Positions 10,925 to 28,739 of a stretch of 43,169 nucleotides of DNA are shown here, one piece after another (within the stretch, counting starts at the first letter, position 1; each line of letters begins with the position of its first letter). Made by a program: the position numbers and the translations under genes. The notes under the pieces were generated by a model. The model was not told where the DNA came from and searched no databases. It saw only the letters and a list, made by a program, of their open reading frames with translations. The DNA lies in the NCBI GenBank assembly GCA_964477765.1, contig CAYZFV010000166.1, positions 1-43,169 of the forward strand, written 5' to 3'. Origin of the DNA: an uncultured Candidatus Kuenenia sp. GTDB lineage: Bacteria > Planctomycetota > Planctomycetia > Pirellulales > UBA1268.

Positions 10925-10926
10925 GA

Positions 10927-16964: not shown

Positions 16965-17528
16965 TCACCCGATCACTTCGAGATCGACGTCTTCGAGTTC
17001 CACCGACGCACCCTGGTTGAGAAACCGCACGGCCACCACGAGCCGCTGGGTGCCGTGCCGCCGCTCGACCGTGCCCTCGAGCCCCCGCAGGGGGCCGCTC
17101 CGCACCCGCACCAGCTGGCCGGGTTCGATCCGGGCTTCCGGGGTGAGCGGCTGGTCGGTGTCGATGAGCCGCTTGATGGCCCGCAGGTCGGCCAGCAACG
17201 CCACTTCGTCGACGATCGGCAGCCACCGGGCGATCGCGTTGGTGGCAAGGGCCGCCCGCCGCTGGTCATCATCGACCCTGGAAAACACATAGCCTGCGAA
17301 GAGCGGTACATGTGAATCCCGCACGCGGCCCCCGGCAGACTTGAGCCGCCGTCGGATCAGCGGGGCATAGAAGGCTACTTCCGCCGCCTCGAGCTTCCGC
17401 ATCAGATCCTTTTCGCGGCGAGAGAGCGTGTAGAACGCCACCCAGCGAAGTCCCTCATCTCCGGGCGGCCGGTCGGCATCGAGGAGATCGGCGGGGAAGC
17501 AATCGCGTTGCCGCGGCAGGATTGGCAT
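16965..17528 (-). CDS. Specialised NusG paralog (NGN + KOW; RfaH/UpxY/LoaP-like)
   Basis: WVAFYTLSRREKDLMRKLE...VPLFAGYVF forms the NGN domain. The KOW motif is GQLVRVRSGPLRGLEGTV. At 187 aa it is too short and divergent for housekeeping NusG. Confidence 0.7.
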   Translation of the reverse strand: MPILPRQRDCFPADLLDADRPPGDEGLRWVAFYTLSRREKDLMRKLEAAEVAFYAPLIRRRLKSAGGRVRDSHVPLFAGYVFSRVDDDQRRAALATNAIARWLPIVDEVALLADLRAIKRLIDTDQPLTPEARIEPGQLVRVRSGPLRGLEGTVERRHGTQRLVVAVRFLNQGASVELEDVDLEVIG

Positions 17529-17571
17529 GCCGCGATTCTATCCTGCCCCCGAGTGTCCTGCGGCCGGCGTC

Positions 17572-18022
17572 CTACGGCCGGCGAAAGATCGTGGAGAGCG
17601 GGAGGGAAAACCCGGGCAGCGCATTTGAGTGAAGGGTGGCATCGGCGGCAAAGGTCGCCGATCCGGCGTCCGGCCCGCTGTCTCGCTGCGGTCGGTAGAT
17701 CGTTACCATCTGTCAGGCAACGATCCATTTCGGCGAGCCGGTTCATCGCCACAAACGCCACATCAGCGGCCCGCACGGTGTCGGGGGCCCGTCGCAACAG
17801 AAAGCCGGTCTCGGCGGCTACCACCACCCCGAGTCGCCGTGGCTCGGCATGGGTCTGGATCGCAGCTGCGATTCGCTGCGCGATCAGTCCGTGTTCGAAG
17901 CCGGCCGGCGACATCATCACAAGCCGCCCCGCCACCAGCTCGCAGCGGCCAAGATCGCCCGCAGCGAGAAGCTCTTCGGCCGTGGCAATCGCAACTGGAA
18001 ATGAAGGATCGATCGTTGCCAT
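17572..18022 (-). pseudogene. Degraded Uma2 (DUF820) endonuclease gene
   Basis: The N-terminal ~105 aa look Uma2-like (ELVAGRLVMMSPAGFEHG, RAADVAFV). The track ORF then becomes junk and overlaps the NusG-like gene. A +1-shifted frame yields a typical Uma2 C-terminus, LHSNALPGFSLPLSTIFRRP, stopping at 17572. The central EVxS catalytic block appears to be missing. Confidence 0.5.
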
Positions 18023-18246
18023 GAGAGCATCTTACGGCCACCCGAGAAGGGCACAAACGCCACACCCAAAAGTGTGCGCATGTACATGCTGTTGTCAAGC
18101 GGGCAGATTGTTGGGGCCAACTGCGTCCTGCCGGCTTGATGTGGCGTAGGCTTCAGCACGCAAATTATCCCCCGGAGCAAACCGGCCCGCTGTAATCCCC
18201 TCCCGTCTCGGATTTCTGCTCCGGACTTCCACAGTGGACTTGAGGC

Positions 18247-18666
18247 ATGGTTCATCTGGCCGAGCTTCCTCTTGCCGACCTCGATCGGGCAGCGATTGCC
18301 GCTGCCGTCACGGCGATCCGTGCGGAGTGGCCGGTAGAAAGGGTCATTCTCTTCGGGTCGAAGGCCCGGGGTGACAACGAACCCGACAGTGACATTGACC
18401 TTGTTGTGATCACCGCCACCGAGCTCGATCGCCCCGCGGAAGACACGATGATGGAGGCGGCCTGGCAGGCGGGCGATCTGCATGGCCGCTGGATTCAATT
18501 GGTCGTGCGGTCGCATGAGCGATGGTATCACGGCATTGACCAGGCAACCCCGTTGCGGCTGCAGGTCAATCAAGACGGGATCGAGGTGTTTCCTGATGAC
18601 CGGGGAAGAGGCGCGGCATCGCACGGTGGCTGCCGGGGTGGCGCTTTGCAACGAGTGCCTGGCTGA
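18247..18666 (+). CDS. Minimal nucleotidyltransferase (MNT), putative antitoxin of an MNT/HEPN pair
   Basis: LFGSKARGDNEPDSDIDLVVI matches the GSxxRGx(n)DxD motif. Confidence 0.8.
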   Translation: MVHLAELPLADLDRAAIAAAVTAIRAEWPVERVILFGSKARGDNEPDSDIDLVVITATELDRPAEDTMMEAAWQAGDLHGRWIQLVVRSHERWYHGIDQATPLRLQVNQDGIEVFPDDRGRGAASHGGCRGGALQRVPG

Positions 18667-18988
18667 AGCAGCTTTTGCCTTACAGGGCGGTTTTCATCGC
18701 CTGGTGCGCTCGCGGGCATACTACGCCTGTTTTCAAGCAGCCACTGCCGTCTTCGCGGCCCGTGGCGGAACGTTCCGCCGGCATTCGGGCCTTCTGGCCG
18801 CGCTCGATCGAGACTTCATCAAAACAGACCGCGTGCCGCCAGAGTGCGGATCGTTGTTGCGGTCGCTCTTTCAATCGCGTCTTCGCTCGGATTACGGAGA
18901 CGTGTCGCCGGTCTCCGCGGCGGATGCCGAGGCGGCCCTCGCAAGCGCCCAAAAAATCGTGGCATGGCTCCTCCCGCTTGCCGAGTGA
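18596..18988 (+). CDS. HEPN-domain protein, putative toxin of the MNT/HEPN pair
   Basis: A start at the ATG at 18596 (MTGEEARHR) overlaps the MNT 3' end. The protein is helical, with SRAYYACFQAA and RLRSDYGD motifs. Confidence 0.65.
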   Translation: MTGEEARHRTVAAGVALCNECLAEAAFALQGGFHRLVRSRAYYACFQAATAVFAARGGTFRRHSGLLAALDRDFIKTDRVPPECGSLLRSLFQSRLRSDYGDVSPVSAADAEAALASAQKIVAWLLPLAE

Positions 18989-19037
18989 TACCAGCAGGTT
19001 CGCACTGACACGTGAAACACATCCGGCGCGTGAGGGG

Positions 19038-19072
19038 GCCGTGTCGTCGGTGCTGCCGTCGTTGTCGAAGAG
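19038..19072 (-). pseudogene. 35-nt remnant (D) of the GT2 gene 24588-25571
   Basis: GCCGTGTCGTCGGTGCTGCCGTCGTTGTCGAAGAG matches 25387-25421 at 32/35 positions, with the first 25 nt exact. It corresponds to the FVDDGSTDDT box. Confidence 0.7.
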
Positions 19073-19093
19073 TTCCATTGACAATCCGGTGGA

Positions 19094-19336
19094 TCATCCT
19101 GCTTCACCGAGACGATGCCGCTCACGGAACTCGCTGATGAATTCGGCTAGGCTTCGGCCTTCTTGCCGCCGGGCATCGTGCAATGAGGCGCGGATGGCCG
19201 CGGCATCATCCGCGGAAGGGTGCGACGCTCGCCATTCGTCCACCAACTCCTCGAGGCTCGTCGTGTCGCGTGAGTGGCGGAGTCTTTCTGCGGCAAAGAC
19301 CGCAAATTGGCGAATCTCTTCTTCGGTCGCAGGCAT
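19094..19336 (-). CDS. Small antitoxin-like protein with no adjacent toxin
   Basis: 80-aa helical protein MPATEEEIRQFAVFAAERL...SLEELVDEWRASHP...GRSLAEFISEFRERH. It resembles small antitoxin partners of RelE/ParE toxins; the family assignment is uncertain. Confidence 0.4.
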   Translation of the reverse strand: MPATEEEIRQFAVFAAERLRHSRDTTSLEELVDEWRASHPSADDAAAIRASLHDARRQEGRSLAEFISEFRERHRLGEAG

Positions 19337-19551
19337 TTTAAAAACTCCTCTATCCAACGCGGTCTTCGCCCAATGGGTTCGATGCTTCCAGGCCGTTTCG
19401 ATGGGGAAAATCGATTTCCTCAGAAACGATACGTGCGTTCACGTATACGGGCCCGCCGCTGCCTGTCAAGCGGGAGGAACGTCTGCTCACCAGGGGACCG
19501 ATATCGGCCGCCGGGCGGCATCGTCAAACCGGCCCGACACAATAGGGGAAC

Positions 19552-20094
19552 CCGCGAGTAGCTGCAGCGGGCCGGGGCCTCGAATTCGATCGTCGTCCGC
19601 TTGAAGCCCATCCAGTCGATCAGACCGCGGAAAAGGCGGTTCCGTTCGGTGAACTGCTTGAGGGCGTCCACCACTTTTCGGTCGAGGAGGCGGAAGTCGG
19701 TGGTGCCCGGCTCCATCTTGAATTCCGAGATCGAGTTGAGCAGAGCATAGAAGAGCCGGGAGCCGAGGCGGCGGGCGAAGGGCTGCTCGTCGATTTTCAC
19801 CCGCCGCGTCGACACCACCTCGTAGCCTTGCTGCCATTTGGCGAGAAGCTCAGGGATGTAGCGGGGCGGGTGCTGGAGGTCGGCATCCATGATGATCGCG
19901 GCGGCGCACTCGAGGGCCTGGAGGCCGGCGGTGAGGGCCATCTCCTTGCCAAAGTTGCGGGAGAGTTCGATCACGCCGATCCGCGGGTCGGCAGCGGCTG
20001 CCTGCTCGAGGAGGGCGGCCGTGTCGTCGCTGCTGCCGTCGTCGACGAAGAGAATCGTGAAGTCGTAGTCAGGGAGCCCCGCGAGCGTGGCGGA
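19552..20094 (-). pseudogene. Partial copy (C) of the GT2 gene, codons ~36-227
   Basis: Roughly 93% nucleotide identity by eye to 24899-25464. It lacks the 5' end, and an 18-bp in-frame deletion removes HAGTAR. Homology is lost left of 19552; the track ORF 19420-20112 has junk termini. Confidence 0.85.
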
Positions 20095-20208
20095 AAGGGG
20101 ATTCGTCCACATGCACCGTAGACCGTATGCTTTTGATTCGACGGCCAGTGGTAGCGAACGGCGGCGTTAGAATCCGCTCCGGTCGCCTCAGTCTTGGTTT
20201 TTCGCACC

Positions 20209-20466
20209 ATGCCCGAAGTATCTCGTTTTTTTGGGATTGTCATCGGCATTTTTCCGCGCGAGCATCCTCCGGCTCATTTTCATGCCGTCTACGGCGATTA
20301 CCAAGTCACGGTCGATATTGAGTCAGGAGAGGTTACGGGCGAATTTCCCCGACGTGCTCTGCGACTTGTGGAAGAGTGGCGATCGCTTCATCAGGCAAAA
20401 CTCCTGGAAAACTGGAATCTGTTGCAGGCTGGTCGCCCGGCTATCAAAATAGAACCGTTGGAGTGA
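20209..20466 (+). CDS. DUF4160-family protein
   Basis: MPEVSRFFGIVIGIFPREHPPAHFHAVYG is the DUF4160 signature (HxPPHFHa). The track ORF starts at a TTG at 20194. Confidence 0.8.
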   Translation: MPEVSRFFGIVIGIFPREHPPAHFHAVYGDYQVTVDIESGEVTGEFPRRALRLVEEWRSLHQAKLLENWNLLQAGRPAIKIEPLE

Positions 20467-20470
20467 TCAC

Positions 20471-20716
20471 ATGATTCCAAAAGTCGTTGCAGCCCACCAC
20501 GTTGCCGGGCACGTCATTCATCTTCGCTTCGCCGATGGCACGGAGGGCGACATTGATCTCGGCCCCGAACTCTACGGCGACCTTTTTGAGCCGCTCAGGG
20601 ACGGTGCGCTTTTCGCACAATTCGCGATTCATCCAGAGTTCCACACGCTCTGCTGGCCCAACGGCGCCGATCTAGCCCCCGAGTTTCTCTACGAGAAAAC
20701 GCGGGTAGCCGCCTGA
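20471..20716 (+). CDS. DUF2442-family protein
   Basis: HLRFADGTEGDIDL...LFEPLRD...FAQFAIHPEFHTLCWPNGADLAPEFLY is a typical DUF2442 pattern. It sits immediately downstream of the DUF4160 gene. Confidence 0.8.
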   Translation: MIPKVVAAHHVAGHVIHLRFADGTEGDIDLGPELYGDLFEPLRDGALFAQFAIHPEFHTLCWPNGADLAPEFLYEKTRVAA

Positions 20717-20741
20717 TGTGGCTTCCCGTGCCGACAGCAGG

Positions 20742-20817
20742 AAGCACCGGGCGCGAGCCTGGTGGCTGCAGCCGCGTTGGCTGGTGCCGTAGCCCGCGGG
20801 CTGGCGCCCTACGGCTT
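20742..20817. repeat. REP pair (A+ 20742-20771, B-variant in reverse 20786-20817)
   Basis: AAGCACCGGGCGCGAGCCTGGTGGCTGCAG and GCCGTAGCCCGCGGGCTGGCGCCCTACGGCTT. Both are collinear with the pair at 24496-24572. Confidence 0.85.
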
Positions 20818-20833
20818 CCTGCGGACCGCGGCC

Positions 20834-21309
20834 TTACGGCGCGCGGTCGCCCGGGCCGAGGTGCTTGCGCACCAGGTACAGCGGCCGGCCGATCACTTCT
20901 GTATGGATATGGCCGATGGAGAGGGCCACGAGCCCGATGCCGCCGAGCACGATCCCATTCATGATCACATTGCTCACGATCACAAAGGCGATCGGGGAAA
21001 ACCCGAATGCGTTGCTGCCCAGCTTGTCATACGCCATAAACGCGAACAGCCCACCAAACACCACGATCACAAAAAACCCGATGTAGCCGGCAAGCTTGAG
21101 CGGCACGAGCGAAAAGACCATGAAGCTGTTGAGGGCCAGCCGGAAGAGCCGCAAGCCAGCCCGACGGGCAAATGGCTGCTCGTCGATCTTCACCCGCCGC
21201 GTCGGCACCACCTCATAGCCTTGCTGCCACTTCGCGAGGAGCTCAGGGATATATCGGGGGGGCGCTGGAGCTCGGCATCCATGATGATGAAGGCATCGCA
21301 CTCGAGGGC
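20834..21309 (-). pseudogene. Partial copy (B) of the GT2 gene: 3' end fused to an internal segment
   Basis: It aligns to 24588-~24900 and then jumps to ~25128-25290. The 222-bp gap is bounded in the intact gene by two copies of GAAGAGCCGCGA. There is no 5' end. Confidence 0.85.
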
Positions 21310-21350
21310 ATGTCGTTGAGAAATTCTTCCATTCATGATACCATAATGGA

Positions 21351-21617
21351 ATGAAAATTACCATTGATGCAGCCGGGCGGCTCGTCGTGCCAAAGTCGCT
21401 GCGCGACCAGTTTCATCTCGCGCCGGGAAGCGAGCTTGAGATCGAACCCACGAGCGACGGCGTGATCATCCGTCCCGCCGACCGGGGGCCGTCGCTGGTC
21501 AGTCGCGAGGGCGTGCTCGTCCACCATGGGCCGCAGACCGCCGTCATCGACATTGCTGCATTCGTGCGGCAGGAGCGCGAGATGCGGGCTCAACGCGTCG
21601 GTCGGCAGCAACGATGA
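21351..21617 (+). CDS. vapB: AbrB/MazE/SpoVT-fold antitoxin
   Basis: MKITIDAAGRLVVPKSLRDQFHL motif. ATGA overlap with the downstream PIN gene. Confidence 0.85.
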   Translation: MKITIDAAGRLVVPKSLRDQFHLAPGSELEIEPTSDGVIIRPADRGPSLVSREGVLVHHGPQTAVIDIAAFVRQEREMRAQRVGRQQR

Positions 21618-22054
21618 AGGTGTTTTTTGACACTTCCGCGCTGGTGACGGCGGTCGTAGACCATTTGCCCAATCACAAGACGGCGCTCGCATGCTACATG
21701 CGTTTCGTCCAGCCGCGCCGCAGCGGGTTGAAGGCCGTCTGCTCGACCCACGCGCTCGCCGAGTGCTATGCAACGCTCACGGCGATGCCGTTGGCCCGCC
21801 GAATCCAGCCGGCCGAGGCAGCCCGGCTGATCGAGGAAAATTTTCTCGAGCACCTCGAAGTCGTGTCGCCCTCGGCCGCCGACTACAAGGCGGCCTTGGC
21901 TCGGGTGGCGACTCTTGGACTCCGGAGTGGAGCCGTCTATGACGCCTTGCATGTCCGTTGCGCCGAGCGATCTCACTGCGATCGGATTGTCACATACAAC
22001 ACGGCCGACTTCGACCGGTTAGCGCCGCCCGGCATCGAGATCGCGACCCCCTGA
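21614..22054 (+). CDS. vapC: PIN-domain ribonuclease toxin
   Basis: MKVFFDTSALV, YDALH and TYNTADF place the acidic residues in PIN order. Confidence 0.85.
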   Translation: MKVFFDTSALVTAVVDHLPNHKTALACYMRFVQPRRSGLKAVCSTHALAECYATLTAMPLARRIQPAEAARLIEENFLEHLEVVSPSAADYKAALARVATLGLRSGAVYDALHVRCAERSHCDRIVTYNTADFDRLAPPGIEIATP

Positions 22055-22081
22055 TGAATGCTCGGCGAACAGATCGTTTTC

Positions 22082-22147
22082 GCGTTGCGCCCTGCGGCTT
22101 CCTGGATCCTCCCCAAAAAGCACCGGGCGCGAACCCGGTGGCTGCAG
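22082..22147. repeat. REP half-unit (family B) plus full family-A unit (22118-22147)
   Basis: GCGTTGCGCCCTGCGGCTT is followed by AAGCACCGGGCGCGAACCCGGTGGCTGCAG. Confidence 0.8.
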
Positions 22148-22174
22148 CAGCGCTTCTGCGCAAGGCATGTCAGC

Positions 22175-22372
22175 TTGGCCGCGGCCACTGGCGCCCTCGA
22201 CGACGCCACGGAGAAGGCCCTCATGGAGACGCTGGCCGGCCTGTCCCGCGAGTTAACGATCATCCTGATCGCCCACCGGCTTTCGACCACGGCCTACGGT
22301 GATCGCACGATCACGGTGGCCGACGGGGCCTTGCGGGAGAGCCGCTCCGTCGCGACGATCGAGGCGGGGTGA
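22175..22372 (+). pseudogene. 3' remnant of an ABC-transporter ATPase gene
   Basis: ATGALDDATEKALMETLAGLSRELTIILIAHRLSTTAYGDRTITVADGAL covers the D-loop/H-loop region downstream of Walker B. Walker A, the signature motif and the TMD are all absent. The upstream part of the track ORF is translated REP. Confidence 0.75.
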
Positions 22373-22542
22373 GGAAGAGGGCGATTGCTCTCACGGAGTG
22401 CCGCGATGATTGTTCCTGCCGGGCCGTCAGAAGTACGATGGAGGCATGGCCATCGAGATCCAACTCCCGATACGCGCGAACCTGGCCCCGCTCTTCTGGG
22501 TCACCGACCCGAGTGCCCTCGACACCGAGGCACACCGCGACT

Positions 22543-22818
22543 TCATGAGGCCACGTCGGACTTGGGGGAGACCGCGGCCACCTCAACCCGGCTGGCTTTT
22601 TCGTCAACTGCGTAGAGAACCCGCAGACACCCTCGCGCCATAAACATAAAGTAGAGTCCTTCGTGCAAGGCAAAGCCCTTTTGGAGAGGCGATCGCGACA
22701 ACACTTCATCGATGGTCGATACGCATTTCGTGATCGATGAGCGGTCAGGTGAGCGAAGCCAAATGGATGACAGTTGATTGATCGCTTCTTTGGTCCACAC
22801 GACCGAACACGGCTTCAT
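22543..22818 (-). CDS. ParE/RelE-superfamily toxin
   Basis: VVWTKEAINQLSSIW...GCLRVLYAVDEKASRVEVAAV. ATGA overlap with the upstream small gene. Confidence 0.7.
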   Translation of the reverse strand: MKPCSVVWTKEAINQLSSIWLRSPDRSSITKCVSTIDEVLSRSPLQKGFALHEGLYFMFMARGCLRVLYAVDEKASRVEVAAVSPKSDVAS

Positions 22819-23033
22819 GATCGTGACAGTTTGTCGAGATGAGCGAGCAGTTCAGCCGTGGTCATTCGTTGGCTCGTGTCGGCCAGGGCGACGCTCGCCC
22901 GGCGGATATCGTCCGGCGAAAAACCGGGGACGAGCGTACCGAGCACGACACCTTGGCGGTCACGAAGTTCTACCGGTGCGGCAGCACTGACGATTTGCGA
23001 GACCTGAGAGTCGTCAAGAATAACGGTGACCAT
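22815..23033 (-). CDS. Putative antitoxin of the ParE/RelE-like toxin
   Basis: 72-aa protein from the ATG at 23033 (MVTVILDD...). It is translationally coupled to the toxin. The family was not recognised. Confidence 0.5.
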   Translation of the reverse strand: MVTVILDDSQVSQIVSAAAPVELRDRQGVVLGTLVPGFSPDDIRRASVALADTSQRMTTAELLAHLDKLSRS

Positions 23034-23201
23034 GGTGAGATCCCGACGGACGGTGAGAGACAAACACAGCCAAACGGAACCTTTATTCAGTCCATAAGGC
23101 GGCCCGGTACCGTCGAGCAGGCTGCCGCGGCCGGAGTGCCGATGATCGCCGAGAGCCCCTCAGGGAGTTGCCGGATGTGTGCCTAAAAGGCATACTCCGG
23201 T

Positions 23202-23486
23202 ATGCGGTTCGAATGGAAGCCCGAGAAAAATGCCTGGTTGCGAAAGCACCGTCGGATCTCCTTCGACAAGATCGTGGTGCATCTCGGCCGGGGCGACGTC
23301 TGGAAGACAAGTCCGCATCCGAATCGCAGGAAGTATCCGCAACAATCGATTGCCTTTGTCATCGTCGATGAATACGTTTTTCTGGTGCCGTTCGACGTTG
23401 TGGGGGACGTGATCCACCTGCGGACCATCATTCCCAGCCGCAAGGCAACGCGACAATACCTGCACGAGAATAGGAGCCGGTTATGA
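23202..23486 (+). CDS. brnT: BrnT-like (DUF497) toxin
   Basis: MRFEWKPEKNAWLRKHRRISFDKIV...IHLRTIIPSRKATRQ. Confidence 0.65.
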   Translation: MRFEWKPEKNAWLRKHRRISFDKIVVHLGRGDVWKTSPHPNRRKYPQQSIAFVIVDEYVFLVPFDVVGDVIHLRTIIPSRKATRQYLHENRSRL

Positions 23487-23773
23487 AACGAGCGACGTCT
23501 CGGCTGAATCAACACGAAAAAGAAATCGTCGCGGCATTCAACCGCGACGAGATGGTTCTTCATGACCCGACGCCGGCACTCCTGGCGCGGTTTGCTCAAG
23601 CGGCCGAAAATACCATCCGCAAGGACAGGCGGATCAACATTCGGCTGTCCGATCACGACCTCGCCGGCATCCAGCGGAAGGCGGCCGAGCAGGGCATCCC
23701 GTATCAGACCCTGATCTCGGGCTTGATTCACCAGTTTGTCGAAGGGCAGATCGCCATCCGCTCGGACGGATAG
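23483..23773 (+). CDS. brnA: BrnA-like RHH antitoxin
   Basis: RINIRLSDHDLAGIQRKAAEQGIPYQTLISGLIHQF. ATGA overlap with the brnT-like gene. Confidence 0.7.
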   Translation: MKRATSRLNQHEKEIVAAFNRDEMVLHDPTPALLARFAQAAENTIRKDRRINIRLSDHDLAGIQRKAAEQGIPYQTLISGLIHQFVEGQIAIRSDG

Positions 23774-23875
23774 CCGAGGTAGGCGGGCAGGTTGGCCGCA
23801 CACCGCTGCCGGTCAAGCGAGCGGTTCGCGCGGGCGGAGTTGGCATCGGCTTCCGTGCCGGATTTCAGCCCTGGA

Positions 23876-24127
23876 TCAGGAACCGTGCTGCCAGAGTTCG
23901 TATTCGCTAATGTCGATCCGCTCATTCCATGCGACCGCATACCCGCCCGGTTCGACGTGGACCTTTCGAAACAATCCCACATCGCAGAGTGGCTGAAAGA
24001 GAGGGATCTTCAGAAGCGGTTTCACGTCGTACTGCTTCACCGCGCCGTTGGCAAAGGAGACCTTGAGGACATGATCCGCAATCGCTTCGACCGCAACCAC
24101 TCGCGGCGGCCGTGCGATTTCGCTCAC
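23876..24127 (-). CDS. DUF2442-family protein (second copy)
   Basis: VLKVSFANGAVKQYDVKPLL...FQPLCDVGLFRKVHVEPGGYAVAWNERIDISEYELW. A GTG at 24127 gives a GTGA overlap with the DUF4160 stop. The track ORF begins at 24202. Confidence 0.75.
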   Translation of the reverse strand: MSEIARPPRVVAVEAIADHVLKVSFANGAVKQYDVKPLLKIPLFQPLCDVGLFRKVHVEPGGYAVAWNERIDISEYELWQHGS

Positions 24128-24372
24128 TCCAACGGAGGCAGTTCGACAAACTCCTGCGTGTCCCAGATCTGCAGAAGTGCTGCTTGATTCAGGTTCGCCC
24201 ATTCGTTCACCAGCCTCTCAGCCGTTTTGGGGAGACTTCCCTCGGTGACTTTCAACGACCTCATATCATACACGGCTCGATGTTCGGCATACTCCGCATG
24301 AAAATGCGGCGGCGGGTGATCACGAAAAAAGACCTTGATCACGATCCCGTAAAATCTCACGATTTCTGGCAT
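24124..24372 (-). CDS. DUF4160-family protein (second copy)
   Basis: MPEIVRFYGIVIKVFFRDHPPPHFHAEYA. Confidence 0.8.
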   Translation of the reverse strand: MPEIVRFYGIVIKVFFRDHPPPHFHAEYAEHRAVYDMRSLKVTEGSLPKTAERLVNEWANLNQAALLQIWDTQEFVELPPLE

Positions 24373-24495
24373 GTTTTCCCTCGGGCGCCATCCAGCAGGC
24401 CTCGCTTGGAGAGTTTGGTCCTGTGTGTATACGCACGTTCCTCTTATGCCCGTCGGGTTCCGGGCTCAAGCCCTGCGGCTCCCTGCTCCCCCAAA

Positions 24496-24572
24496 AAGCA
24501 CCGGGCGCGAGCCTGGTGGCTGCAGCAGCGCTGGCTGGTGCGGTATCCCGCGGGCTGGCGCCCTGCGGCTTT
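24496..24572. repeat. REP pair (A+ 24496-24525, B-variant in reverse 24541-24572)
   Basis: AAGCACCGGGCGCGAGCCTGGTGGCTGCAG and CGGTATCCCGCGGGCTGGCGCCCTGCGGCTTT lie just downstream of the intact GT2 stop. Confidence 0.85.
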
Positions 24573-24587
24573 CTGGGGTCCGCGGCT

Positions 24588-25571
24588 TTACGGATGGCGG
24601 TCGCCCGGGCCGATCTGCTTGCGCACCAGATACAGCGGCCGGCCGATCACTTCCGTGTGGATGTGGCCGATGTAGAGGGCCACGAGGCCGATGCAGCCGA
24701 GCACGATGCCGTTCATGATCACATTGCTCACGATCACAAAGGCGATCGGCGAAAACCCAAAGGTGTTGCTGGCCAGTTTGTCGTAGGTCATAAACGCGAG
24801 CAGCCCGCCAAACACCACGATCACGAAAAACCCGATGTAGCCGGCCAGCTTCAGCGGCACGAGCGAAAACGCCATGAAGCTGTTGAGGGCCAGGCGGAAG
24901 AGCCGCGAATAACTGTAGCGGGCCGTGCCGGCGTGGCGGGCCGGGGCCTCGAATTCGATCGTCGTCCGCTTGTAGCCCATCCAGTCGATCAGGCCGCGGA
25001 AAAGCCGGTTGCGTTCGGTGAATCGCTTGAGGGCCTCCACCACCTTCCGGTCGAGGAGGCGGAAGTCGGTGGTGCCCGGCTCCATCTTGAATTCGGAGAT
25101 CGAATTGAGCAGCGAGTAGAAGAGCCGCGAGCCGAGCCGTCGGGCAAAGGGCTGCTCGTCGATTTTCACCCGCCGGGTCGACACCACCTCATAGCCTTGC
25201 TGCCATTTGGCGAGCAGCTCAGGGATGTAGCGGGGCGGATGCTGGAGGTCGGCATCCATAATGATCGCGGCGTCGCACTCGAGGGCCTGGAGGCCGGCGG
25301 TGAGGGCCATCTCCTTGCCGAAGTTGCGGGAGAGTTCGATCACGCCGATCCGCGGGTCGGCAGCCGCGGCCTGCTCGAGGATGGTAGCCGTGTCGTCGGT
25401 GCTGCCGTCGTCGACAAAGAGGATCGTGAAGTCGTAGTCAGGGAGCCCCGCGAGCGTGGCGGAGAGTTCGCGCAGCAGCGGAGCGATATTGGCCGCCTCA
25501 TTAAAGGCGGGAACGAGGATGGCGATGCGGCGCTGTGGCATGAGGGTTCTCCCAGCCGTCAGTATGCTCAC
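24588..25571 (-). CDS. GT2 polyprenyl-phosphate glycosyltransferase (GtrB/ArnC/Dpm1 type), intact copy
   Basis: IAILVPAFNEAANI, FVDDGSTDDT and MDADLQHPP motifs, plus two C-terminal TM helices (LVPLKLAGYIGFFVIVVFGGLLAF; IAFVIVSNVIMNGIVLGCIGLVALYI). The start is either GTG 25571 (GTGA overlap with the flippase stop) or ATG 25541. Confidence 0.9.
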   Translation of the reverse strand: MSILTAGRTLMPQRRIAILVPAFNEAANIAPLLRELSATLAGLPDYDFTILFVDDGSTDDTATILEQAAAADPRIGVIELSRNFGKEMALTAGLQALECDAAIIMDADLQHPPRYIPELLAKWQQGYEVVSTRRVKIDEQPFARRLGSRLFYSLLNSISEFKMEPGTTDFRLLDRKVVEALKRFTERNRLFRGLIDWMGYKRTTIEFEAPARHAGTARYSYSRLFRLALNSFMAFSLVPLKLAGYIGFFVIVVFGGLLAFMTYDKLASNTFGFSPIAFVIVSNVIMNGIVLGCIGLVALYIGHIHTEVIGRPLYLVRKQIGPGDRHP

Positions 25572-26848
25572 GCCACTTCATCGGAACCAGCGGCGGATCG
25601 AAACTCGGGCACCATGAGGATTCCGCCTATGACGGCCAGCATCGTGTTGAATGTCGCGATCGTGCCGATGACGGCATGGAGCGACGGGTGCCATGCTCGC
25701 AACACCGCCAATTCCCCAGCGGCCAAGGCCGCGACCACCCAGCAGAAGAAGGTCCGGCCCTTGGCCACCAAAAACCCTTGAATCACCATCGCCAAGGCCA
25801 TGGGCACCATGGCCAGACCGTAGACAGCAAGCAGGCTGCCCGCAGCGCCATATCTTTCACCGTACAGGACACGCACGAGCCAAGGGCCGGCGACGAAGTA
25901 GACGAGTGCGGCTGCCCCGCAAAGCAGGGCAGTGGCTCCGAGCGCCTGGGCAGCGTGGCCGGTGCCGCGTTCCCGTCGGGCATGGCTGGCGGCCACGATC
26001 GGCAGGATCGCGGTCACGAGCCCGCCGGGCAGGTAGAGGACCGCTTTGCCAAGAACTGAAGCCGGAGCGTATTGGCCGGCCGTGGCCGGATCGAAGAATC
26101 GGTTGACCAGCACCAAATCCATTTGCGTCATCGTGGTCAGCCCGATGACCGATGCCATGACCGGAGCGATCAACCGGAAGGGAAAGTCCGTCGCTGCCCC
26201 AACGCCTGGAGCCACACCGGCCCATCCTCGTGAAATCGCCCCCATGCTTCCGCCGAGAACGAGCAGCGTTGATGCGAGCACCCCGCCCAGCGCGCCGTGC
26301 AGCCCCTGCCGCAGCGACGCGACAAAGAACAGGCAGATTGCGATCTTCGCCACGACCCCGCCAAAGCCGAGCCCGCCGATCCATCCAAACGCCTGCAGTC
26401 CGCGGAGCACGGCGCCCGTGAGAATCGAGAGGGTCGTGGCGAGCACGATTCCTGCGAGTAGCCAGACACTTTCGACATCGGGAGCTTGCAGCCACTGGCG
26501 TACCTGTGGCCCGGCGACCATCACCGCCACCGCGACCACTCCGCAACCGGCCCAAAGCCATGTCGTCCAAGTGCGATAGAGCCGCCGAACACTGCCGCAC
26601 CCCTCCATCGCGGCCACATTCGCCACATGCCGCGCCGCAACCGTCTCCAGCGCGGTCATGGGCGAGCAGGCCACCATGCCCATCGCGAGGATGCCGTTGA
26701 AGGCGGCGTAGTCCTCGGCGGCGAGGGTGCGGCCCATCGCAACCTGAAATACGTAGCCCGAGACACCCGTGGCCACGTTGAGCGCGGTGAGCAAAAACCC
26801 CGCCCGCAGCACCTCGCTGCTTCGCCATGCCTGAAAAACGTTAAACAT
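25568..26848 (-). CDS. MOP/Wzx-type polysaccharide (oligosaccharide) flippase
   Basis: About 12 hydrophobic segments and a typical 426-aa length from the ATG at 26848 (MFNVFQAWRSS). It sits in a polysaccharide-locus context. Confidence 0.7.
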   Translation of the reverse strand: MFNVFQAWRSSEVLRAGFLLTALNVATGVSGYVFQVAMGRTLAAEDYAAFNGILAMGMVACSPMTALETVAARHVANVAAMEGCGSVRRLYRTWTTWLWAGCGVVAVAVMVAGPQVRQWLQAPDVESVWLLAGIVLATTLSILTGAVLRGLQAFGWIGGLGFGGVVAKIAICLFFVASLRQGLHGALGGVLASTLLVLGGSMGAISRGWAGVAPGVGAATDFPFRLIAPVMASVIGLTTMTQMDLVLVNRFFDPATAGQYAPASVLGKAVLYLPGGLVTAILPIVAASHARRERGTGHAAQALGATALLCGAAALVYFVAGPWLVRVLYGERYGAAGSLLAVYGLAMVPMALAMVIQGFLVAKGRTFFCWVVAALAAGELAVLRAWHPSLHAVIGTIATFNTMLAVIGGILMVPEFRSAAGSDEVA

Positions 26849-26873
26849 GCGTGCCGGCAGCAGCCGTCTTCGG

Positions 26874-28739
26874 CTACTCCTTGTCCAGCACAAAGCAGAC
26901 GAGGTCGCCCATCGGGCTTTCGATCGGCGGTTTCGTGTAGCCAAGCTGCTTCAGGGTTTCCTCGATGCCCTTACCACCGTCGGGATACCCGTTGCGGTTC
27001 ACATAGAGCCCCGAGAAGCCAAGCTCTCGGAGTTTCTGCACGCCGGCTTCGAAGTTTCGCGGATTGAGCTGGATTCGTTGCTTTTGCTGATCCAGGGCGG
27101 CGCCCGTAAAGGCCGCCTGCTCCCAGAGCTTCTGCCAGTTTCCACCTTTTCGACCCACGTTGCCTCCCACGGAGTATCGCAGCGAGGTGCTATAAAGCGA
27201 AGGCCTGAAATGATCGGACGCCGAGACGCCGGGCACCGGTCCGGCCGTTGTGACGGGCAGCTGAAACACCATGGCGTCTTTGGGCAGCGCAGCCTCCATG
27301 TTCGCCGTAAATTCCCGGTCGGCAGCCACCTGCGCCGCGATGGTCGCTTGCTGGTCGGCCGTGGGGGCCCGCGGCACTTGATCCCAGAGGATCACGGTGC
27401 ACATTCCCAAACAGGCGGTGGCCACGAGGATCCGCGATGTCTCCGCGGGAAACCGCTCCCGCATCTTTTCTTGCCAGCCCGTCAGTCGCTCCGCCGCGTA
27501 GAGCAGCACGATCGCGAGGATCACCACGCCATAGCGACACGTTGTGCGAAACAGCGTGAATCCGGTGAACGCAGCCACAGTCGCATTCAGCCCGCCGGTC
27601 GTGGCCATGAGCACGATCCAGAGCACCTGCCAGGCCGCCATTGGAATCTGCGACTCTCGTCGCTCGGCACCTATGCGAATAGCCGCCCACACGAGCGTCA
27701 GGAGCGAAGCGATGCCAAAGAGCCCGAGATACACGCATCCTTCCTCGTCGAGCAGCACAGAGGCCTCGCGATGTTGCGAGCCGAAGCGGGCAAATTCAGA
27801 GCACCGGTGCGTGATCCACGGCACGAACATATCAACGATCTTGAAGGCGTAGATATCAAGCCATCGATAGGCGCGGTCCACAAACGGGCTCTCGGTCGGC
27901 GGGCCGTAGATCCAGCGGTAGGAAAGCGTGTCGAGGTTGCTGATGAAAAAGGCGAGCGCGACGGCGCCCACGATTGCCATGGAGGGCAGGGCCGCCGCCC
28001 ACGATCGCTTGCGAAGCGCCAGCAATCCGCCACCGAGTAGCGCGAGTTGGCAGAAAACATTGCCAAAATAAGGATTCTGCAGCCCGGTCACGAAGCCAAT
28101 CGCCATCGCCTGCCAGAAGCGTCGCGAATTGATCTCTAGCCCCGGATCTGTCGACACCCACCGCCACACGGGCAGAAACAGCGGCACATACCAGACGTAT
28201 TGGCAAGTGTTGTGGTGAGGCGATTGGGCAAACTGATACGGCGCCAAGCCGAATGCCAATGCCGTGACGAATGCCCACGCCCTCCCGCACCGATTCAGTC
28301 GAGCGACAGCATAAAAGGTAAATCCTGCAGCAATATGTCCGAAAAGAACCCCCAGATTGAAGCCCGGGAACAACCCAAAAAATCGCACCATCAGCGCAAA
28401 AAAAGCCATGATCGGCTCGTCGGCGGAAAGTGCGTCAGTCCATTGAGCTCCATATGGCGCGCCGAACTTCGCACTTGCTTTCCACATGAATGGGGGGAAA
28501 TCACCTTCGGCCACCGCGCGAACCATGGCGCTGCCGCCTAAAAAATCGCTGTAGACGGGGTCCAGATAGGTCGTCGGCAAACCCCACGCCGATGCCGTCC
28601 ACTTGCCATGCGCCGCGCACCAAGCGAGCGTAGTTGTAGCGACAAGCAAGGCGATTGGAAGCAAGGCGATCGGTGAGGCATCTCCGCGTTTCACCGAACA
28701 GGAATCTCGCCTGCCAAAAAACTTATGGAAGAGTGTCAT
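26874..28739 (-). CDS. Large polytopic membrane protein with C-terminal soluble domain; possible GT-C-type glycosyltransferase
   Basis: 621 aa with more than 10 hydrophobic helices in the first ~450 aa. The C-terminal domain ends ...GFSGLYVNRNGYPDGGKGIEETLKQLGY...MGDLVCFVLDKE. The family was not recognised. Confidence 0.45.
   Translation of the reverse strand: MTLFHKFFGRRDSCSVKRGDASPIALLPIALLVATTTLAWCAAHGKWTASAWGLPTTYLDPVYSDFLGGSAMVRAVAEGDFPPFMWKASAKFGAPYGAQWTDALSADEPIMAFFALMVRFFGLFPGFNLGVLFGHIAAGFTFYAVARLNRCGRAWAFVTALAFGLAPYQFAQSPHHNTCQYVWYVPLFLPVWRWVSTDPGLEINSRRFWQAMAIGFVTGLQNPYFGNVFCQLALLGGGLLALRKRSWAAALPSMAIVGAVALAFFISNLDTLSYRWIYGPPTESPFVDRAYRWLDIYAFKIVDMFVPWITHRCSEFARFGSQHREASVLLDEEGCVYLGLFGIASLLTLVWAAIRIGAERRESQIPMAAWQVLWIVLMATTGGLNATVAAFTGFTLFRTTCRYGVVILAIVLLYAAERLTGWQEKMRERFPAETSRILVATACLGMCTVILWDQVPRAPTADQQATIAAQVAADREFTANMEAALPKDAMVFQLPVTTAGPVPGVSASDHFRPSLYSTSLRYSVGGNVGRKGGNWQKLWEQAAFTGAALDQQKQRIQLNPRNFEAGVQKLRELGFSGLYVNRNGYPDGGKGIEETLKQLGYTKPPIESPMGDLVCFVLDKE

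What the first reader, a model, noticed from the sequence alone, without database searches (positions are those of the whole stretch)
19038..25571. Four same-strand copies or remnants of one GtrB/Dpm1-type GT2 gene, interleaved with toxin-antitoxin cassettes
The intact gene is 24588-25571 (minus strand). Remnant C (19552-20094) is roughly 93% identical by eye to 24899-25464 and lacks both ends. Remnant B (20834-21309) carries the gene's 3' end plus the downstream REP pair (20742-20817, collinear with 24496-24572) and an internal 222-bp deletion. Remnant D (19038-19072) matches 25387-25421 at 32/35 positions, with 25 nt exact. All four share one orientation, but they are not in the order a single split gene would give: the 3' piece B lies upstream of the middle piece C. 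The gaps hold DUF4160/DUF2442 (twice), VapBC, a ParE-like pair, BrnTA, an orphan antitoxin-like gene and an ABC-ATPase 3' remnant. No integrase or transposase is visible. This looks like a hotspot that has repeatedly captured TA cassettes while duplicating part of the flanking gene. I cannot assign a known mechanism.
Basis: partly seen in the sequence, partly recalled or inferred. Interest (0 to 1): 0.72.

Follow-up and report, generated by a model that had tools for sequence, protein, structure and literature searches.

The report
Gene relics in toxin-antitoxin hotspot
A 7-kb stretch of a planctomycete chromosome, absent or nearly so in close relatives, has filled with toxin-antitoxin modules and broken leftovers of extra copies of the neighbouring glycosyltransferase gene; this is a well-preserved example of an ordinary recombination hotspot, not a new kind of mobile element.

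Summary
The intact GtrB/ArnC-type GT2 gene (24588-25571, minus strand) has three same-strand relics. C (19549-20097) is 93.6% identical. B (20834-21312) is 86-90% identical and has a 222-nt in-frame deletion plus the downstream REP. D (19034-19072) is 39 nt. Seven toxin-antitoxin (TA) modules or relics lie between them, and the window holds no recombinase. The array is not an assembly artefact: it recurs at 99.7-99.95% identity in contigs from four metagenome samples.

Close relatives have GT2 next to NusG with nothing between them (L002, L088) or one cassette (L001, L044/L087), so this is a hotspot. The relics, however, are not by-products of each capture. C and B diverged from the intact gene under purifying selection (dN/dS 0.09 and 0.17). 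The B-type gene is intact in sister strains with the same REP-DUF4160/DUF2442 neighbour. Block C-DUFa-REP-B-VapBC sits between the promoter region and 3' end of a destroyed ABC-exporter gene.

The permuted order fits one segmental duplication, replacement-type cassette insertions and microhomology deletions. SNP clusters in conspecific contigs show continuing allelic recombination in GT2.

Verdict: a new member of a known kind, comparable to a minimal-mobile-element hotspot or a displaced-relic array. Interest is moderate.

The parts
24588..25571 (-). Intact GT2 gene, a GtrB/ArnC-type polyprenyl-phosphate glycosyltransferase. It overlaps the stop of the upstream flippase-like gene.
   Evidence: Pfam Glycos_transf_2 E = 1.5e-31. 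Full-length match to GtrB sll0501 (5EKP), E = 7e-62, and to ArnC. Its 5' part carries a 137-nt allelic recombination tract in conspecific contigs.
24470..24580 (.). REP pair (a long imperfect palindrome) just downstream of the GT2 gene. It belongs to a dispersed family with 8 clusters in the window.
   Evidence: BLASTN copies at 9-76, 10065-10124, 16768-16943, 20742-20824, 22087-22154, 38856-39016 and 39874-39922. Hairpin fold.
23876..24372 (-). DUF4160b/DUF2442b pair (dhiTA-type TA module). The same position is occupied in L044/L087 by a very divergent homologue.
   Evidence: Pfam. dS against L044 is 0.86-2.2, versus 0.34 for NusG. dhiTA is described in PMC8198452.
23202..23773 (+). BrnT-like toxin and BrnA (CopG-type) antitoxin pair.
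   Evidence: Pfam BrnT_toxin E = 0.0098 (weak) and CopG_antitoxin E = 4e-5. A homologous cassette lies next to the ParD gene in L004.
22543..23063 (-). Two-gene cassette: an antitoxin-like gene (22815-23063) and a RelE/ParE-like toxin (22543-22818).
   Evidence: The genes overlap by 4 nt. Only weak RelE hits in PDB (E = 0.015-0.03). No Pfam or NCBIfam hit.
22154..22372 (+). 3' relic (last 72 codons) of an MsbA/HlyB-type ABC exporter gene.
   Evidence: NCBIfam matches to profile positions ~500-560 of ~580. An ABC exporter gene of the same fused permease/ATPase kind, seen through its N-terminal part, lies next to NusG or GT2 in L046, L048 and L081.
22087..22154 (.). REP copy between the VapC stop and the ABC relic.
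   Evidence: 89% identical to 24470-24532.
21351..22054 (+). VapB (AbrB/MazE-type) and VapC (PIN) cassette. Together with the REP it replaces the ABC 5' part and codons 1-94 of GT2 copy B.
   Evidence: Pfam. 11 clustered SNPs in L077/L085.
20834..21312 (-). Relic B: GT2 codons ~95-151 and 226-327 plus the stop codon. It has a 222-nt in-frame deletion between GAAGAGCCGC repeats and a 1-nt indel. It is the older pseudogene.
   Evidence: B-branch changes: B-high 7 synonymous/9 non-synonymous versus 7/0 on the intact gene's branch. An intact B-type allele exists in L078/L079/L090. B' in L004/L045/L046 has the same deletion junction.
20742..20824 (.). REP copy collinear with the one downstream of the intact gene.
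   Evidence: 91.6% identical to 24496-24578. Fold z-score = -2.55.
20194..20716 (+). DUF4160a/DUF2442a pair (dhiTA-type), convergent with B. It travels together with REP and the B-type gene in other genomes.
   Evidence: Pfam. 95-100% amino-acid identity in L004, L045-47, L078-82 and L090. dS against L004/L047 is 0.21-0.27, versus 0.62-1.19 for backbone genes.
19549..20097 (-). Relic C: GT2 codons 36-224 with a 21-nt in-frame deletion. Both ends are lost. It is the closest allele to the intact gene.
   Evidence: 93.6% identical. dS 0.24, dN/dS 0.09. C-branch 13S/4N versus intact-gene branch 12S/4N. The same 5' truncation junction is present in L081/L082/L090, where the 3' part is kept.
19485..19556 (+). 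Relic of the ABC-exporter upstream (promoter) spacer, joined to the 3'-truncated end of C at a CCGCG microhomology.
   Evidence: 87.5% identical to the spacer that precedes the ABC start codon in L081/L082.
19080..19357 (-). ParD-like 'orphan' antitoxin (19094-19357) plus the first six codons (MIHRIV) of its ParE toxin.
   Evidence: 87% amino-acid identity to the gene upstream of ParE in L004/L045/L046. ParE Pfam E = 1.7e-4. The ParE 3' end precedes the intact GT2 in L079.
19034..19072 (-). Relic D: 39 nt of GT2 (codons ~50-62, DDGSTDDT motif) fused to the ParE stub.
   Evidence: 32/35 with 25 nt exact to the intact gene; 33/36 to C. Other GT2 genes of the window do not match.
18247..18988 (+). 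MNT (nucleotidyltransferase) and HEPN type II TA pair.
   Evidence: Pfam NTP_transf_2 E = 5e-11 and HEPN E = 3e-14.
17735..18022 (-). Uma2-family endonuclease 5' relic (about the first half of the domain).
   Evidence: Pfam Uma2 positions 9-81 of 172.
16965..17528 (-). NusG-like gene: the conserved flank on the far side of the hotspot.
   Evidence: Pfam NusG/KOW. 83-92% amino-acid identity in L001, L002 and L044; 92.7% nucleotide identity in L088.

Best explanation
The region is a recombinase-free variable segment, a hotspot, between two conserved genes (GT2 and a NusG paralogue/PSD1 gene) in a Pirellulales-type planctomycete. It is a layered mosaic of alternative versions of the same neighbourhood.

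Shown:
1. Relatives have an empty or one-cassette site.
2. The GT2 relics are leftovers of at least two further gene copies that evolved as working genes.
3. The B-type copy is still intact in sister strains, flanked by a TA cassette upstream (ParDE in L079, a PIN toxin in L090) and by REP-DUF4160a/DUF2442a downstream.
4. The window's block C-DUFa-REP-B-VapBC-REP lies between the upstream spacer and the 3' end of a destroyed ABC-exporter gene.
5. Internal deletions sit at 8-10-nt direct repeats.
6. Conspecific genomes differ by short, highly divergent tracts in GT2, VapBC and MNT/HEPN.

Inferred history. The ancestral order (read in the GT2 direction) was: ABC (opposite strand) | spacer | parD-parE - GT2_B - REP - DUFa (opposite strand) - GT2_C. 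A segment running from the spacer to codon 224 of GT2_C was duplicated in tandem, with its joint at a CCGCG microhomology. VapBC+REP then replaced everything from the ABC 5' part to codon 94 of GT2_B in the first unit. In the second unit, deletions and the MNT/HEPN and Uma2 segments removed everything except parD, six parE codons and the 39-nt relic D.

Inferred mechanism. The whole chunk sits beside the current functional gene (memb-flip-GT2-REP-DUFb). The different versions were brought together by RecA-type homologous recombination anchored in GT2/REP homology, with illegitimate (microhomology) second joints. Redundant GT2 copies then decayed. The TA modules persisted because losing them is harmful, so deletions could only nibble at the DNA between them.
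For: Copies and junctions.

Hotspot. Empty sites in L002, L018 and L088/L089; one cassette in L001, L044/L087 and L048. L088 joins window 24472 to 17563.

Relics were functional alleles. C vs intact: 27 of 34 differences at third codon positions, dN/dS 0.087. Polarised with 9 outgroups, the C branch has 13S/4N, like the intact branch with 12S/4N. B-low dN/dS is 0.17. The B-high branch is relaxed at 7S/9N.

B-type gene intact with the same neighbours: L078, L079 (ParE 3' end upstream) and L090 (PIN upstream, C-relic beyond DUFa).

Module mobility. DUFa dS to L004/L047 is 0.21-0.27, against GT2 0.62-0.70 and NusG 1.19. B' in L004 is closer to the window lineage (90%) than to L004's own GT2 (82%) and shares the 222-nt deletion junction, although L004-type GT2 lacks the GAAGAGCCGC repeats.

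ABC framing: the spacer at 19485-19556 is the L081/L082 ABC-upstream region; the ABC 3' relic is at 22154-22372.

Cyclic permutation relative to L004/L046/L079.

Ongoing recombination. 17 of 38 SNPs between the window and L077 fall in 25356-25492 (12% divergent, extending beyond C, and only 5 of 11 positions match C). 4 of 7 SNPs against L076 fall in 25260-25268.

No recombinase or att/attC.

Not an artefact.

G+C is lower (0.59-0.63) in the array than in the 1-17 kb flank (mostly 0.64-0.70).
Against: - The duplicated units no longer overlap anywhere in the window, so the tandem duplication is inferred only from gene order in relatives. A direct translocation of block B-DUFa-C into the ABC gene would give the same end state.
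- The key sister-strain contigs (L078-L082, L090) are only 1-2 kb long, so their wider context is unknown.
- Whether the three GT2 copies arose by import from other lineages or by old in-lineage duplication cannot be decided. Both relics are closest to the window's own gene.
- The C copy was already 5'-truncated in the common ancestor of the window, L082 and L090, so 'recent' inactivation is relative, and the S/N counts are small.
- No donor sequence for any junction is known.
- RecA dependence, transformation and TA addiction are all untested.
- dN/dS values are Nei-Gojobori estimates on 56-177 codons.
Confidence: 0.58

Rival explanations
1. Purely in-situ history. The GT2 gene and its surroundings were duplicated in tandem several times within this lineage, and the copies then decayed. 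No horizontal import of alleles or modules was involved, and TA cassettes inserted independently.
For: Both relics are more similar to the window's intact gene than to any orthologue. The B/C/parD order is a cyclic permutation, which is typical of tandem duplication followed by loss. All copies share one strand.
Against: The copies differ by dS 0.24-0.45 with dN/dS as low as between true orthologues, so they would have had to coexist as selected genes for a long time. The DUFa-REP-B module is 3-5 times less diverged from the L004 clade than backbone genes are, and it sits there in another context. The closest relatives (L088, L044/L087; NusG about 89-93% nucleotide identity, 92% amino-acid in L044) lack all of it. 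Highly divergent allelic tracts are visibly being exchanged within the species.
Confidence: 0.2
2. Sequential displacement, as in Rhs/CDI/T6SS orphan arrays. Each incoming DNA segment carried a new GT2 3' part plus a TA cassette, recombined in the conserved 5' part of the resident gene, and pushed the old 3' part downstream. The newest copy would then lie nearest the intact gene.
For: The relics are 5'-truncated, same-strand and downstream of the intact copy. B keeps the 3' end and the REP. A 5'-proximal recombination tract exists in GT2. Homology-facilitated illegitimate recombination (HFIR) is an established way to get such arrays (PMC5361080).
Against: The predicted age order fails. B, the relic nearest the intact gene, is the oldest and most decayed, while C, further away, is the youngest. 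B-REP-DUFa-C is a pre-assembled block also found elsewhere, with the C position occupied by the intact gene. The block lies within ABC gene remains rather than directly after the displaced gene. Four cassettes lie between the intact gene and B without any relic.
Confidence: 0.12
3. A site-specific system moves the cassettes: an integron-like array or CALIN, an integrase-driven island, or REP-flanked units mobilised by a RAYT transposase encoded elsewhere.
For: REP copies abut 5 of the TA-associated junctions. Some cassettes are REP-flanked on both sides: DUFa in L078, DUFb in L044/L087, and VapBC2 at 38856-39922. In L046 the inserted block is flanked by a 77-nt direct repeat that includes the NusG 3' end.
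Against: No integrase, transposase or RAYT in the window. No shared hairpin site at cassette borders other than the genome-wide REP. No Rfam hit. Cassettes lie in both orientations and carry their own promoter regions. REPs also occur between housekeeping genes. The mapped junctions are at short microhomologies inside genes, not at a common site.
Confidence: 0.06
4. The relics are functional. Either they are silent donor cassettes for gene conversion of the expressed GT2 gene, or they are truncated proteins under selection.
For: They are same-strand partial copies near an expressed gene. The C and B ORFs are open (230 and 176 codons). Relic C is annotated as a gene in public databases (P0098). 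Short conversion-like tracts occur in the intact gene.
Against: Differences between the relics and the gene are mostly synonymous, so conversion would create little protein variation. The 137-nt tract extends beyond C and matches C at only 5 of 11 sites. The 9-nt tract in L076 matches B at 3 of 4 sites (read from the alignment) but fits L044's allele at least as well. B' is frameshifted and further deleted in L004. C lacks its first 35 codons. B has lost codons 1-94, and its frame is shifted across the DXD-motif region (codons ~95-112), where the underlying sequence also carries D108E and H111R.
Confidence: 0.03

Closest known systems
Minimal mobile elements and integration hotspots between conserved flanking genes (Neisseria MMEs, PMC3787668; chromosomal HGT hotspots, PMC5635113)
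   Same: The segment is variable and bounded by conserved genes. Content differs between relatives, including empty sites. There are no mobility genes, and there are signs of homologous recombination in the flanks.
   Different: Here the variation is seen between species-level relatives and is fixed within the sampled species. The segment also keeps relics of extra copies of the flanking gene and of a neighbouring ABC gene. Natural transformation is not known for this organism.
Displaced 'orphan' arrays downstream of rhs, cdiA and T6SS effector genes (C-terminal displacement; HFIR model in PMC5361080)
   Same: There are same-strand partial copies of one gene downstream of the intact copy, interleaved with toxin/immunity-type modules. 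No integrase is involved. Homology anchor plus illegitimate joint is a plausible mechanism.
   Different: The TA modules are independent type II cassettes in both orientations, not toxin domains fused to the repeated gene. The repeated gene is a cytoplasmic-face glycosyltransferase. The age order of the relics contradicts simple sequential displacement.
Chromosomal integron cassette arrays / CALINs rich in TA cassettes
   Same: A dense array of small TA cassettes, with palindromic repeats at some borders and TA modules plausibly stabilising the array.
   Different: There is no intI and there are no attC sites. Orientations are mixed, and the palindromes are a genome-wide REP family.
dhiTA (DUF4160/DUF2442) type II TA system of Dickeya dadantii (PMC8198452)
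   Same: Two of the cassettes have exactly this domain pair in the same gene order, with short overlap or spacing.
   Different: Toxicity and neutralisation were not tested here. The sequences are distant from the Dickeya pair.

Membership tests
GtrB/ArnC-type polyprenyl-phosphate GT2 (intact gene 24588-25571) | GT-A catalytic domain of family 2, with full-length collinearity to GtrB/ArnC including the C-terminal membrane region | tested here: met
   Pfam PF00535 E = 1.5e-31. Residues 16-317 align to GtrB sll0501 (5EKP) residues 28-327, E = 7e-62; also ArnC, E = 6e-37.
GtrB/ArnC-type GT2 (relics B, C, D as members, i.e. working genes) | Complete catalytic domain and intact reading frame | tested here: not met
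   C lacks codons 1-35 and 225-327. B lacks codons 1-94 and 152-225 and has a frameshift. D is 13 codons long.
Type II toxin-antitoxin modules (VapBC, MNT/HEPN, DUF4160/DUF2442 x2) | Two small adjacent or overlapping genes with a recognised toxin domain and a partner domain | tested here: met
   Pfam PIN + MazE/AbrB, NTP_transf_2 + HEPN, and DUF4160 + DUF2442. The genes overlap or lie 4-5 nt apart.
Type II toxin-antitoxin modules (BrnTA, RelE/ParE-like pair 22543-23063, ParD orphan) | Recognised toxin domain above the family threshold | tested here: inconclusive
   BrnT E = 0.0098, below the cut-off. The RelE-like toxin has only PDB hits at E = 0.015-0.03. The ParE partner of the orphan is seen only in L046 (22.5 bits vs cut-off 23).
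Type II toxin-antitoxin modules (all) | Toxin arrests growth and the antitoxin neutralises it | not testable with these tools
   Requires expression experiments.
Integron / CALIN | attC recombination sites at cassette 3' ends, intI integrase, and uniform cassette orientation | tested here: not met
   No integrase domain in the window ORFs. No recurrent hairpin at cassette borders apart from the REP. Cassettes lie on both strands.
Integrase-borne genomic island at the 3' end of a gene | Integrase gene plus direct att repeats flanking the island | tested here: not met
   No integrase. No direct repeat flanks 17564-24471 other than GT2/REP homology. A 77-nt direct repeat flanks the block only in L046.
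Minimal mobile element / HGT hotspot | Conserved flanking genes with different gene content, including empty sites, in relatives, and no dedicated mobility genes | tested here: met
   L002, L018 and L088/L089 are empty. L001, L044/L087 and L048 hold one cassette. The window holds a 6.9-kb array.
Minimal mobile element / HGT hotspot | Exchange by homologous recombination in the flanks | tested here: inconclusive
   Clustered divergent SNP tracts lie in GT2 (17 SNPs in 137 nt) within otherwise 99.7-99.95% identical contigs. This is consistent with recombination, but no event that changes cassette content was caught.
Rhs/CDI/T6SS-type displaced orphan array | Each relic is the conserved part of the gene fused to a variable toxin end followed by its immunity gene, with the newest module proximal | tested here: not met
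   The cassettes are separate genes, partly on the other strand. Relic B (proximal) is older than C.
Silent-cassette gene-conversion system (pilE/pilS type) | Silent copies differ from the expressed gene at protein level, and conversion tracts match the silent copies | tested here: not met
   27 of 34 C differences are at third codon positions. The L077 tract matches C at 5 of 11 sites and extends past C.

The most novel reading that the evidence does not exclude
GT2 gene fragments and REP palindromes act as portable homology arms. They would let small TA cassettes, and whole blocks such as B-REP-DUFa, move between alternative versions of this locus in different Pirellulales lineages without any dedicated recombinase. 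The TA modules would in turn protect the intervening gene relics from deletion. This would be a recombinase-free cassette-exchange system analogous to Rhs/CDI orphan shuffling, but built on a housekeeping-type glycosyltransferase.
Probability: 0.2. Interest if true: 0.6.

Novelty: new member of a known kind. Interest (0 to 1): 0.36.

Why it matters
The region shows, in a poorly studied phylum, how a chromosomal hotspot without mobility genes is built. Alternative versions of a locus are stacked, a segment is duplicated, cassettes are inserted by replacement, and microhomology deletions trim the result, while TA modules outlive the genes around them. Because intermediate states survive in sister strains, the history can be partly reconstructed, which is unusual.

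There is also a practical point for annotation. Relic C is annotated in public databases as a polyisoprenyl-phosphate glycosyltransferase although it is a fragment. No new mechanism needs to be invoked.

Tried and rejected
- Simple 'newest-upstream' accretion, with each event replacing the GT2 3' end. Rejected because polarised substitutions show B (proximal) is older and more relaxed than C, and because B-REP-DUFa-GT2 is a shared pre-assembled block.
- Integron/attC idea. Inverted-repeat scan of 18900-24600 found only the REP and chance pairs. Rfam gave no match.
- Plasmid origin. A distant BLASTN of 17530-24590 against PLSDB hit only generic GT2 segments at 66-75%. Phage collections were not searched.
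- D as a fragment of another GT2 paralogue. Rejected, because the best matches are this gene and C.
- Gene conversion from relics into the intact gene. The SNP tracts do not match the relics.
- Exact-protein look-ups of the intact GT2 (327- and 317-aa versions) found nothing. The look-ups succeeded through DUF2442a, VapC and NusG instead.
- Global alignment of the C/DUF4160a junction with L046, looking for a trace of the 77-nt NusG-end repeat, was too weak to use.
- Pfam and NCBIfam gave nothing for the RelE-like pair, the ParD-like gene or the flippase-like and GT-C-like neighbours beyond weak hits.

Full report
**1. What is in the sequence.**

- C: 19567-20097 matches 24936-25466 at 93.6% over 531 ungapped bases.
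- B-low: 20742-21152 matches 24496-24906 at 90.3%. This stretch includes the REP pair.
- B-high: 21143-21312 matches 25119-25289 at 86.0%.
- D: 19038-19072 matches 25387-25421 at 32/35, with 25 nt exact (E = 5e-8).

Base-by-base comparison adds three details.
- C continues to about 19549 across a 21-nt in-frame deletion between two GCGGGCCG repeats.
- The two halves of B overlap by the 10-nt repeat GAAGAGCCGC. This repeat occurs at 24897 and 25119 in the intact gene, so B carries a 222-nt in-frame deletion (codons 152-225).
- B-high also has a 1-nt indel.

D's best matches in the window and in all fetched loci are this gene and relic C, not the two other GT2 genes at 35.9-37.7 kb.

The intact protein is a GtrB/ArnC-type polyprenyl-phosphate glycosyltransferase (Pfam). 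It aligns over its full length to GtrB 5EKP with E = 7e-62.

**2. The genes between the relics.**

Confirmed by Pfam:
- DUF4160/DUF2442, twice. This domain pair is the dhiTA toxin-antitoxin system of Dickeya (PMC8198452).
- VapB(AbrB)/VapC(PIN).
- MNT/HEPN.
- A truncated Uma2 gene.

Weaker or indirect assignments:
- BrnT is weak (E = 0.0098). BrnA matches CopG_antitoxin.
- The 'ParE-like' toxin at 22543-22818 has only weak RelE hits in PDB.
- 22154-22372 matches the last ~60 residues of MsbA/HlyB-type ABC exporters.
- The 'orphan antitoxin' at 19094-19357 is the ParD-like partner of a ParE toxin. That toxin is present in L045/L046, truncated at its 3' end and fused to relic B' (Pfam ParE_toxin 22.5 bits). 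Only its first six codons (MIHRIV, 19080-19097) remain here, directly fused to D.

None of the window ORFs that were searched has a recombinase domain. Cassette borders share no hairpin site other than the REP. Rfam gives nothing, and plasmids show only generic GT2 similarity. G+C in the array is 0.59-0.63, against mostly 0.64-0.70 in the 1-17 kb flank.

**3. Not an artefact.**

Exact-protein look-ups with DUF2442a, VapC and NusG returned contigs from four metagenome samples that carry the whole array: JGI 3300001533, 3300077097, 3300077098 and 3300077563. They are 99.7-99.95% identical to the window over up to 13.9 kb. The copies also differ from each other by 6-14%, so they cannot be a collapsed repeat.

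**4. It is a hotspot.**

Related planctomycete contigs with the same flanks show the following.
- GT2-REP-NusG with nothing in between: L002; also L088/L089, whose NusG is 92.7% identical at the nucleotide level.
- GT2 next to the PSD1 gene: L018.
- One small ORF: L048.
- One unrelated VapBC: L001.
- One DUF4160b/DUF2442b cassette flanked by REPs: L044/L087.

L088 joins window position 24472 to 17563, so the whole 6.9 kb is extra. The DUFb cassette shared with L044 is far more divergent (dS 0.86-2.2) than the backbone (NusG dS 0.34). It is therefore an old or replaced allele rather than a simple orthologue.

**5. What the relics are.**

C and the intact gene differ at 34 positions, 27 of them third codon positions (dS 0.24, dN/dS 0.087). 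Polarising with nine orthologues gives 13 synonymous/4 non-synonymous changes on C's branch and 12/4 on the intact gene's branch. C thus evolved as a working gene for most of its separate history.

B-low has dS 0.29 and dN/dS 0.17, on a long branch (16S/7N against 3S/4N). B-high has 7S/9N against 7S/0N, including changes in the DXD region. B is therefore older and partly decayed.

Both relics are closer to the window's intact gene than to any orthologue (dS to L044 is 0.41-0.54). Their divergence is nonetheless of the size seen between species.

**6. Intermediate states in other genomes.**

(a) L004, L045, L046 and L047 form a clade. Its GT2 is ~82% identical and lies in a different context, with a kinase and a sigma factor downstream. 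These loci carry ParD-ParE'::B'-REP-DUFa, followed by an intact GT2 at the position of C.
- B' has the same 222-nt deletion junction as B and is a frameshifted pseudogene.
- B' is about 90% identical to the window lineage but only 82% identical to its own neighbouring GT2.
- That neighbouring GT2 lacks the GAAGAGCCGC repeats.
- The DUFa genes differ from the window's by dS 0.21-0.27, while GT2 differs by 0.62-0.70 and NusG by 1.19.
- Together this says the B-REP-DUFa module is younger than the genomes it sits in, which points to horizontal movement.
- In L046 the inserted block is flanked by a 77-nt direct repeat (98.7% identical) that includes the last 35 nt of NusG.

(b) L078, L079 and L090 (88-93% identical) have an intact 317-codon GT2 of the B type. 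It keeps both GAAGAGCCGC repeats and is followed by REP and the convergent DUFa pair. Upstream lies the 3' end of ParE in L079 and the end of a PIN toxin in L090.

(c) L081, L082 and L090 (93-97% identical in DUFa) have a C-type relic with exactly the window's 5' truncation junction. Unlike the window, these relics keep the 3' part of the gene. In L081/L082 the DUFa pair is followed by the first 24 nt of the REP, then a spacer 87.5% identical to window 19485-19556, and then the start of an ABC exporter gene. An ABC exporter of the same kind lies next to NusG in L046 and next to GT2 in L048.

**7. Reconstruction (inferred).**

Window 19485-19556 is therefore the ABC upstream region, and 22154-22372 is the ABC 3' end. 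The block C-DUFa-REP-B-VapBC-REP (19549-22153) lies between them.

Read in the GT2 direction, the orders are:
- L079, L046 and L082 together indicate an ancestral order: ABC (opposite strand) | spacer | parD-parE-GT2_B-REP-DUFa(opposite)-GT2_C.
- The window reads: ABC'-REP-VapCB | B-REP-DUFa-C | spacer-parD-parE'-D.

The window's order is a cyclic permutation of the ancestral one. The simplest route has three steps.
1. A tandem duplication of the segment from the spacer to codon 224 of GT2_C. Its joint is at a CCGCG microhomology at 19549-19556.
2. Replacement of the stretch from the ABC 5' part to GT2_B codon 94 by VapBC+REP in the first unit.
3. In the second unit, loss of everything from parE codon 7 onwards apart from the 39-nt relic D, with the MNT/HEPN and Uma2' segments now lying where the rest of that unit would have been.

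A direct translocation of the block into ABC would give the same end state. This chunk lies between the DUFb cassette and NusG of an L044/L087-type locus, whose GT2 is the current functional gene.

**8. Mechanism.**

Shown:
- deletions at 8-10-nt direct repeats;
- joints at short microhomologies inside genes;
- no recombinase or specific site.

Within the species, SNPs are strongly clustered.
- Against L077/L085, 17 of the 37-38 SNPs lie in 25356-25492. That 137-nt tract is 12% divergent, runs past the end of C, and matches C at only 5 of 11 sites, so it came from an unsampled allele.
- A further 11 SNPs lie in VapBC and 5 in MNT/HEPN.
- Against L076, 4 of the 7 SNPs lie in 25260-25268.

This is the signature of homologous recombination with diverged alleles.

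Inferred: alternative versions of the locus were joined by homologous recombination anchored in GT2/REP, with an illegitimate second joint. This would be homology-facilitated illegitimate recombination (HFIR), as proposed for T6SS effector-immunity arrays (PMC5361080). Redundant GT2 copies then decayed. TA modules persisted because their loss is counter-selected, which would explain why relics survive only as slivers between them.

**9. Comparison with known systems.**

The site meets the definition of a minimal mobile element or HGT hotspot (PMC3787668, PMC5635113).

It resembles Rhs/CDI/T6SS orphan arrays in having same-strand relics interleaved with toxin/immunity-type genes. It fails their defining features, however: the cassettes are not fused to the repeated gene, and the proximal relic is the older one. 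It is not an integron or an integrase island.

A silent-cassette gene-conversion role is unlikely. The differences are mostly synonymous, the tracts do not match the relics, and B' decays in L004.

**10. Verdict.**

This is a new, unusually well-documented member of a known kind of genome dynamics. I rate interest at about 0.36.

Noticed in passing
window 4416-12556: An 8.1-kb segment is absent from L044/L087, L001 and L018, where 4415 and 12557 are adjacent. It holds a second PSD1-type/DUF1501 pair, a prepilin-like protein, a response regulator and a sensor-like gene. This is a second insertion or deletion polymorphism in the same contig.
   Followed up: partly
window 37907-39922: A second small TA site. 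A 3' relic of a paralogue of the membrane protein gene 26874-28739 (48% amino-acid identity to residues 534-620) lies at 37907-38164. It is followed by a ParE-like gene (38501-38824), REPs (38856-39016), a VapBC pair (39148-39827) and another REP (39874-39922). This repeats the relic-REP-TA pattern of the main finding.
   Followed up: partly
window 25572-37733 versus L087/L088: In L087/L088 the block homologous to 33738-37733 (radical SAM, FAD/NAD oxidoreductase, two GT2 genes) lies directly upstream of the GT2 gene and in the opposite relative orientation. Genes 25572-33700 (flippase-like, GT-C-like, methyltransferases, GT15; G+C 0.51-0.57 at 28-34 kb) are missing there. This implies an inversion and/or insertion upstream of the hotspot.
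   Followed up: no
window REP clusters: 9-76, 10065-10124, 16768-16943, 20742-20824, 22087-22154, 24470-24580, 38856-39016, 39874-39922: A dispersed REP family forms long imperfect palindromes. Five of the eight clusters abut TA cassettes, and some cassettes in relatives are REP-flanked on both sides (DUFa in L078, DUFb in L044/L087). It is unknown whether REPs take part in cassette movement.
   Followed up: partly
L046 1398-1474 and 3341-3417: A 77-nt direct repeat (98.7% identical), made of the last 35 nt of NusG plus 42 nt downstream, flanks the ParD-ParE'-B'-REP-DUFa block. It looks like the footprint of a duplicative insertion. L004 also has a 70%-identical relic of this repeat plus GT2 codons 1-28 at 456-631.
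   Followed up: partly
window 19420-20112 (relic C ORF) / protein P0098: The 230-codon ORF over relic C is present in public protein collections (6 contigs), named polyisoprenyl-phosphate glycosyltransferase. The longest contig carrying it is 43169 bp, so the window is a whole public contig.
   Followed up: no
L044 135-1190: The GT2 orthologue of this close relative is split into two ORFs (135-539 and 558-1190). This is either a frameshift or stop, or an assembly error. The near-identical arrangement in L087 has an intact 334-codon gene.
   Followed up: no
window 39928-43169: Two adjacent paralogous genes (55% amino-acid identity over ~436 residues) encode large membrane/TPR proteins. The second runs off the end of the window.
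   Followed up: no
L003 end / L042 start: Two contigs of one MAG overlap by 141 identical bases inside the GT2 3' end. They are one gene broken by the assembler exactly at this locus. Downstream genes there (a GT39-like membrane protein and another GT2) differ from all other relatives.
   Followed up: partly
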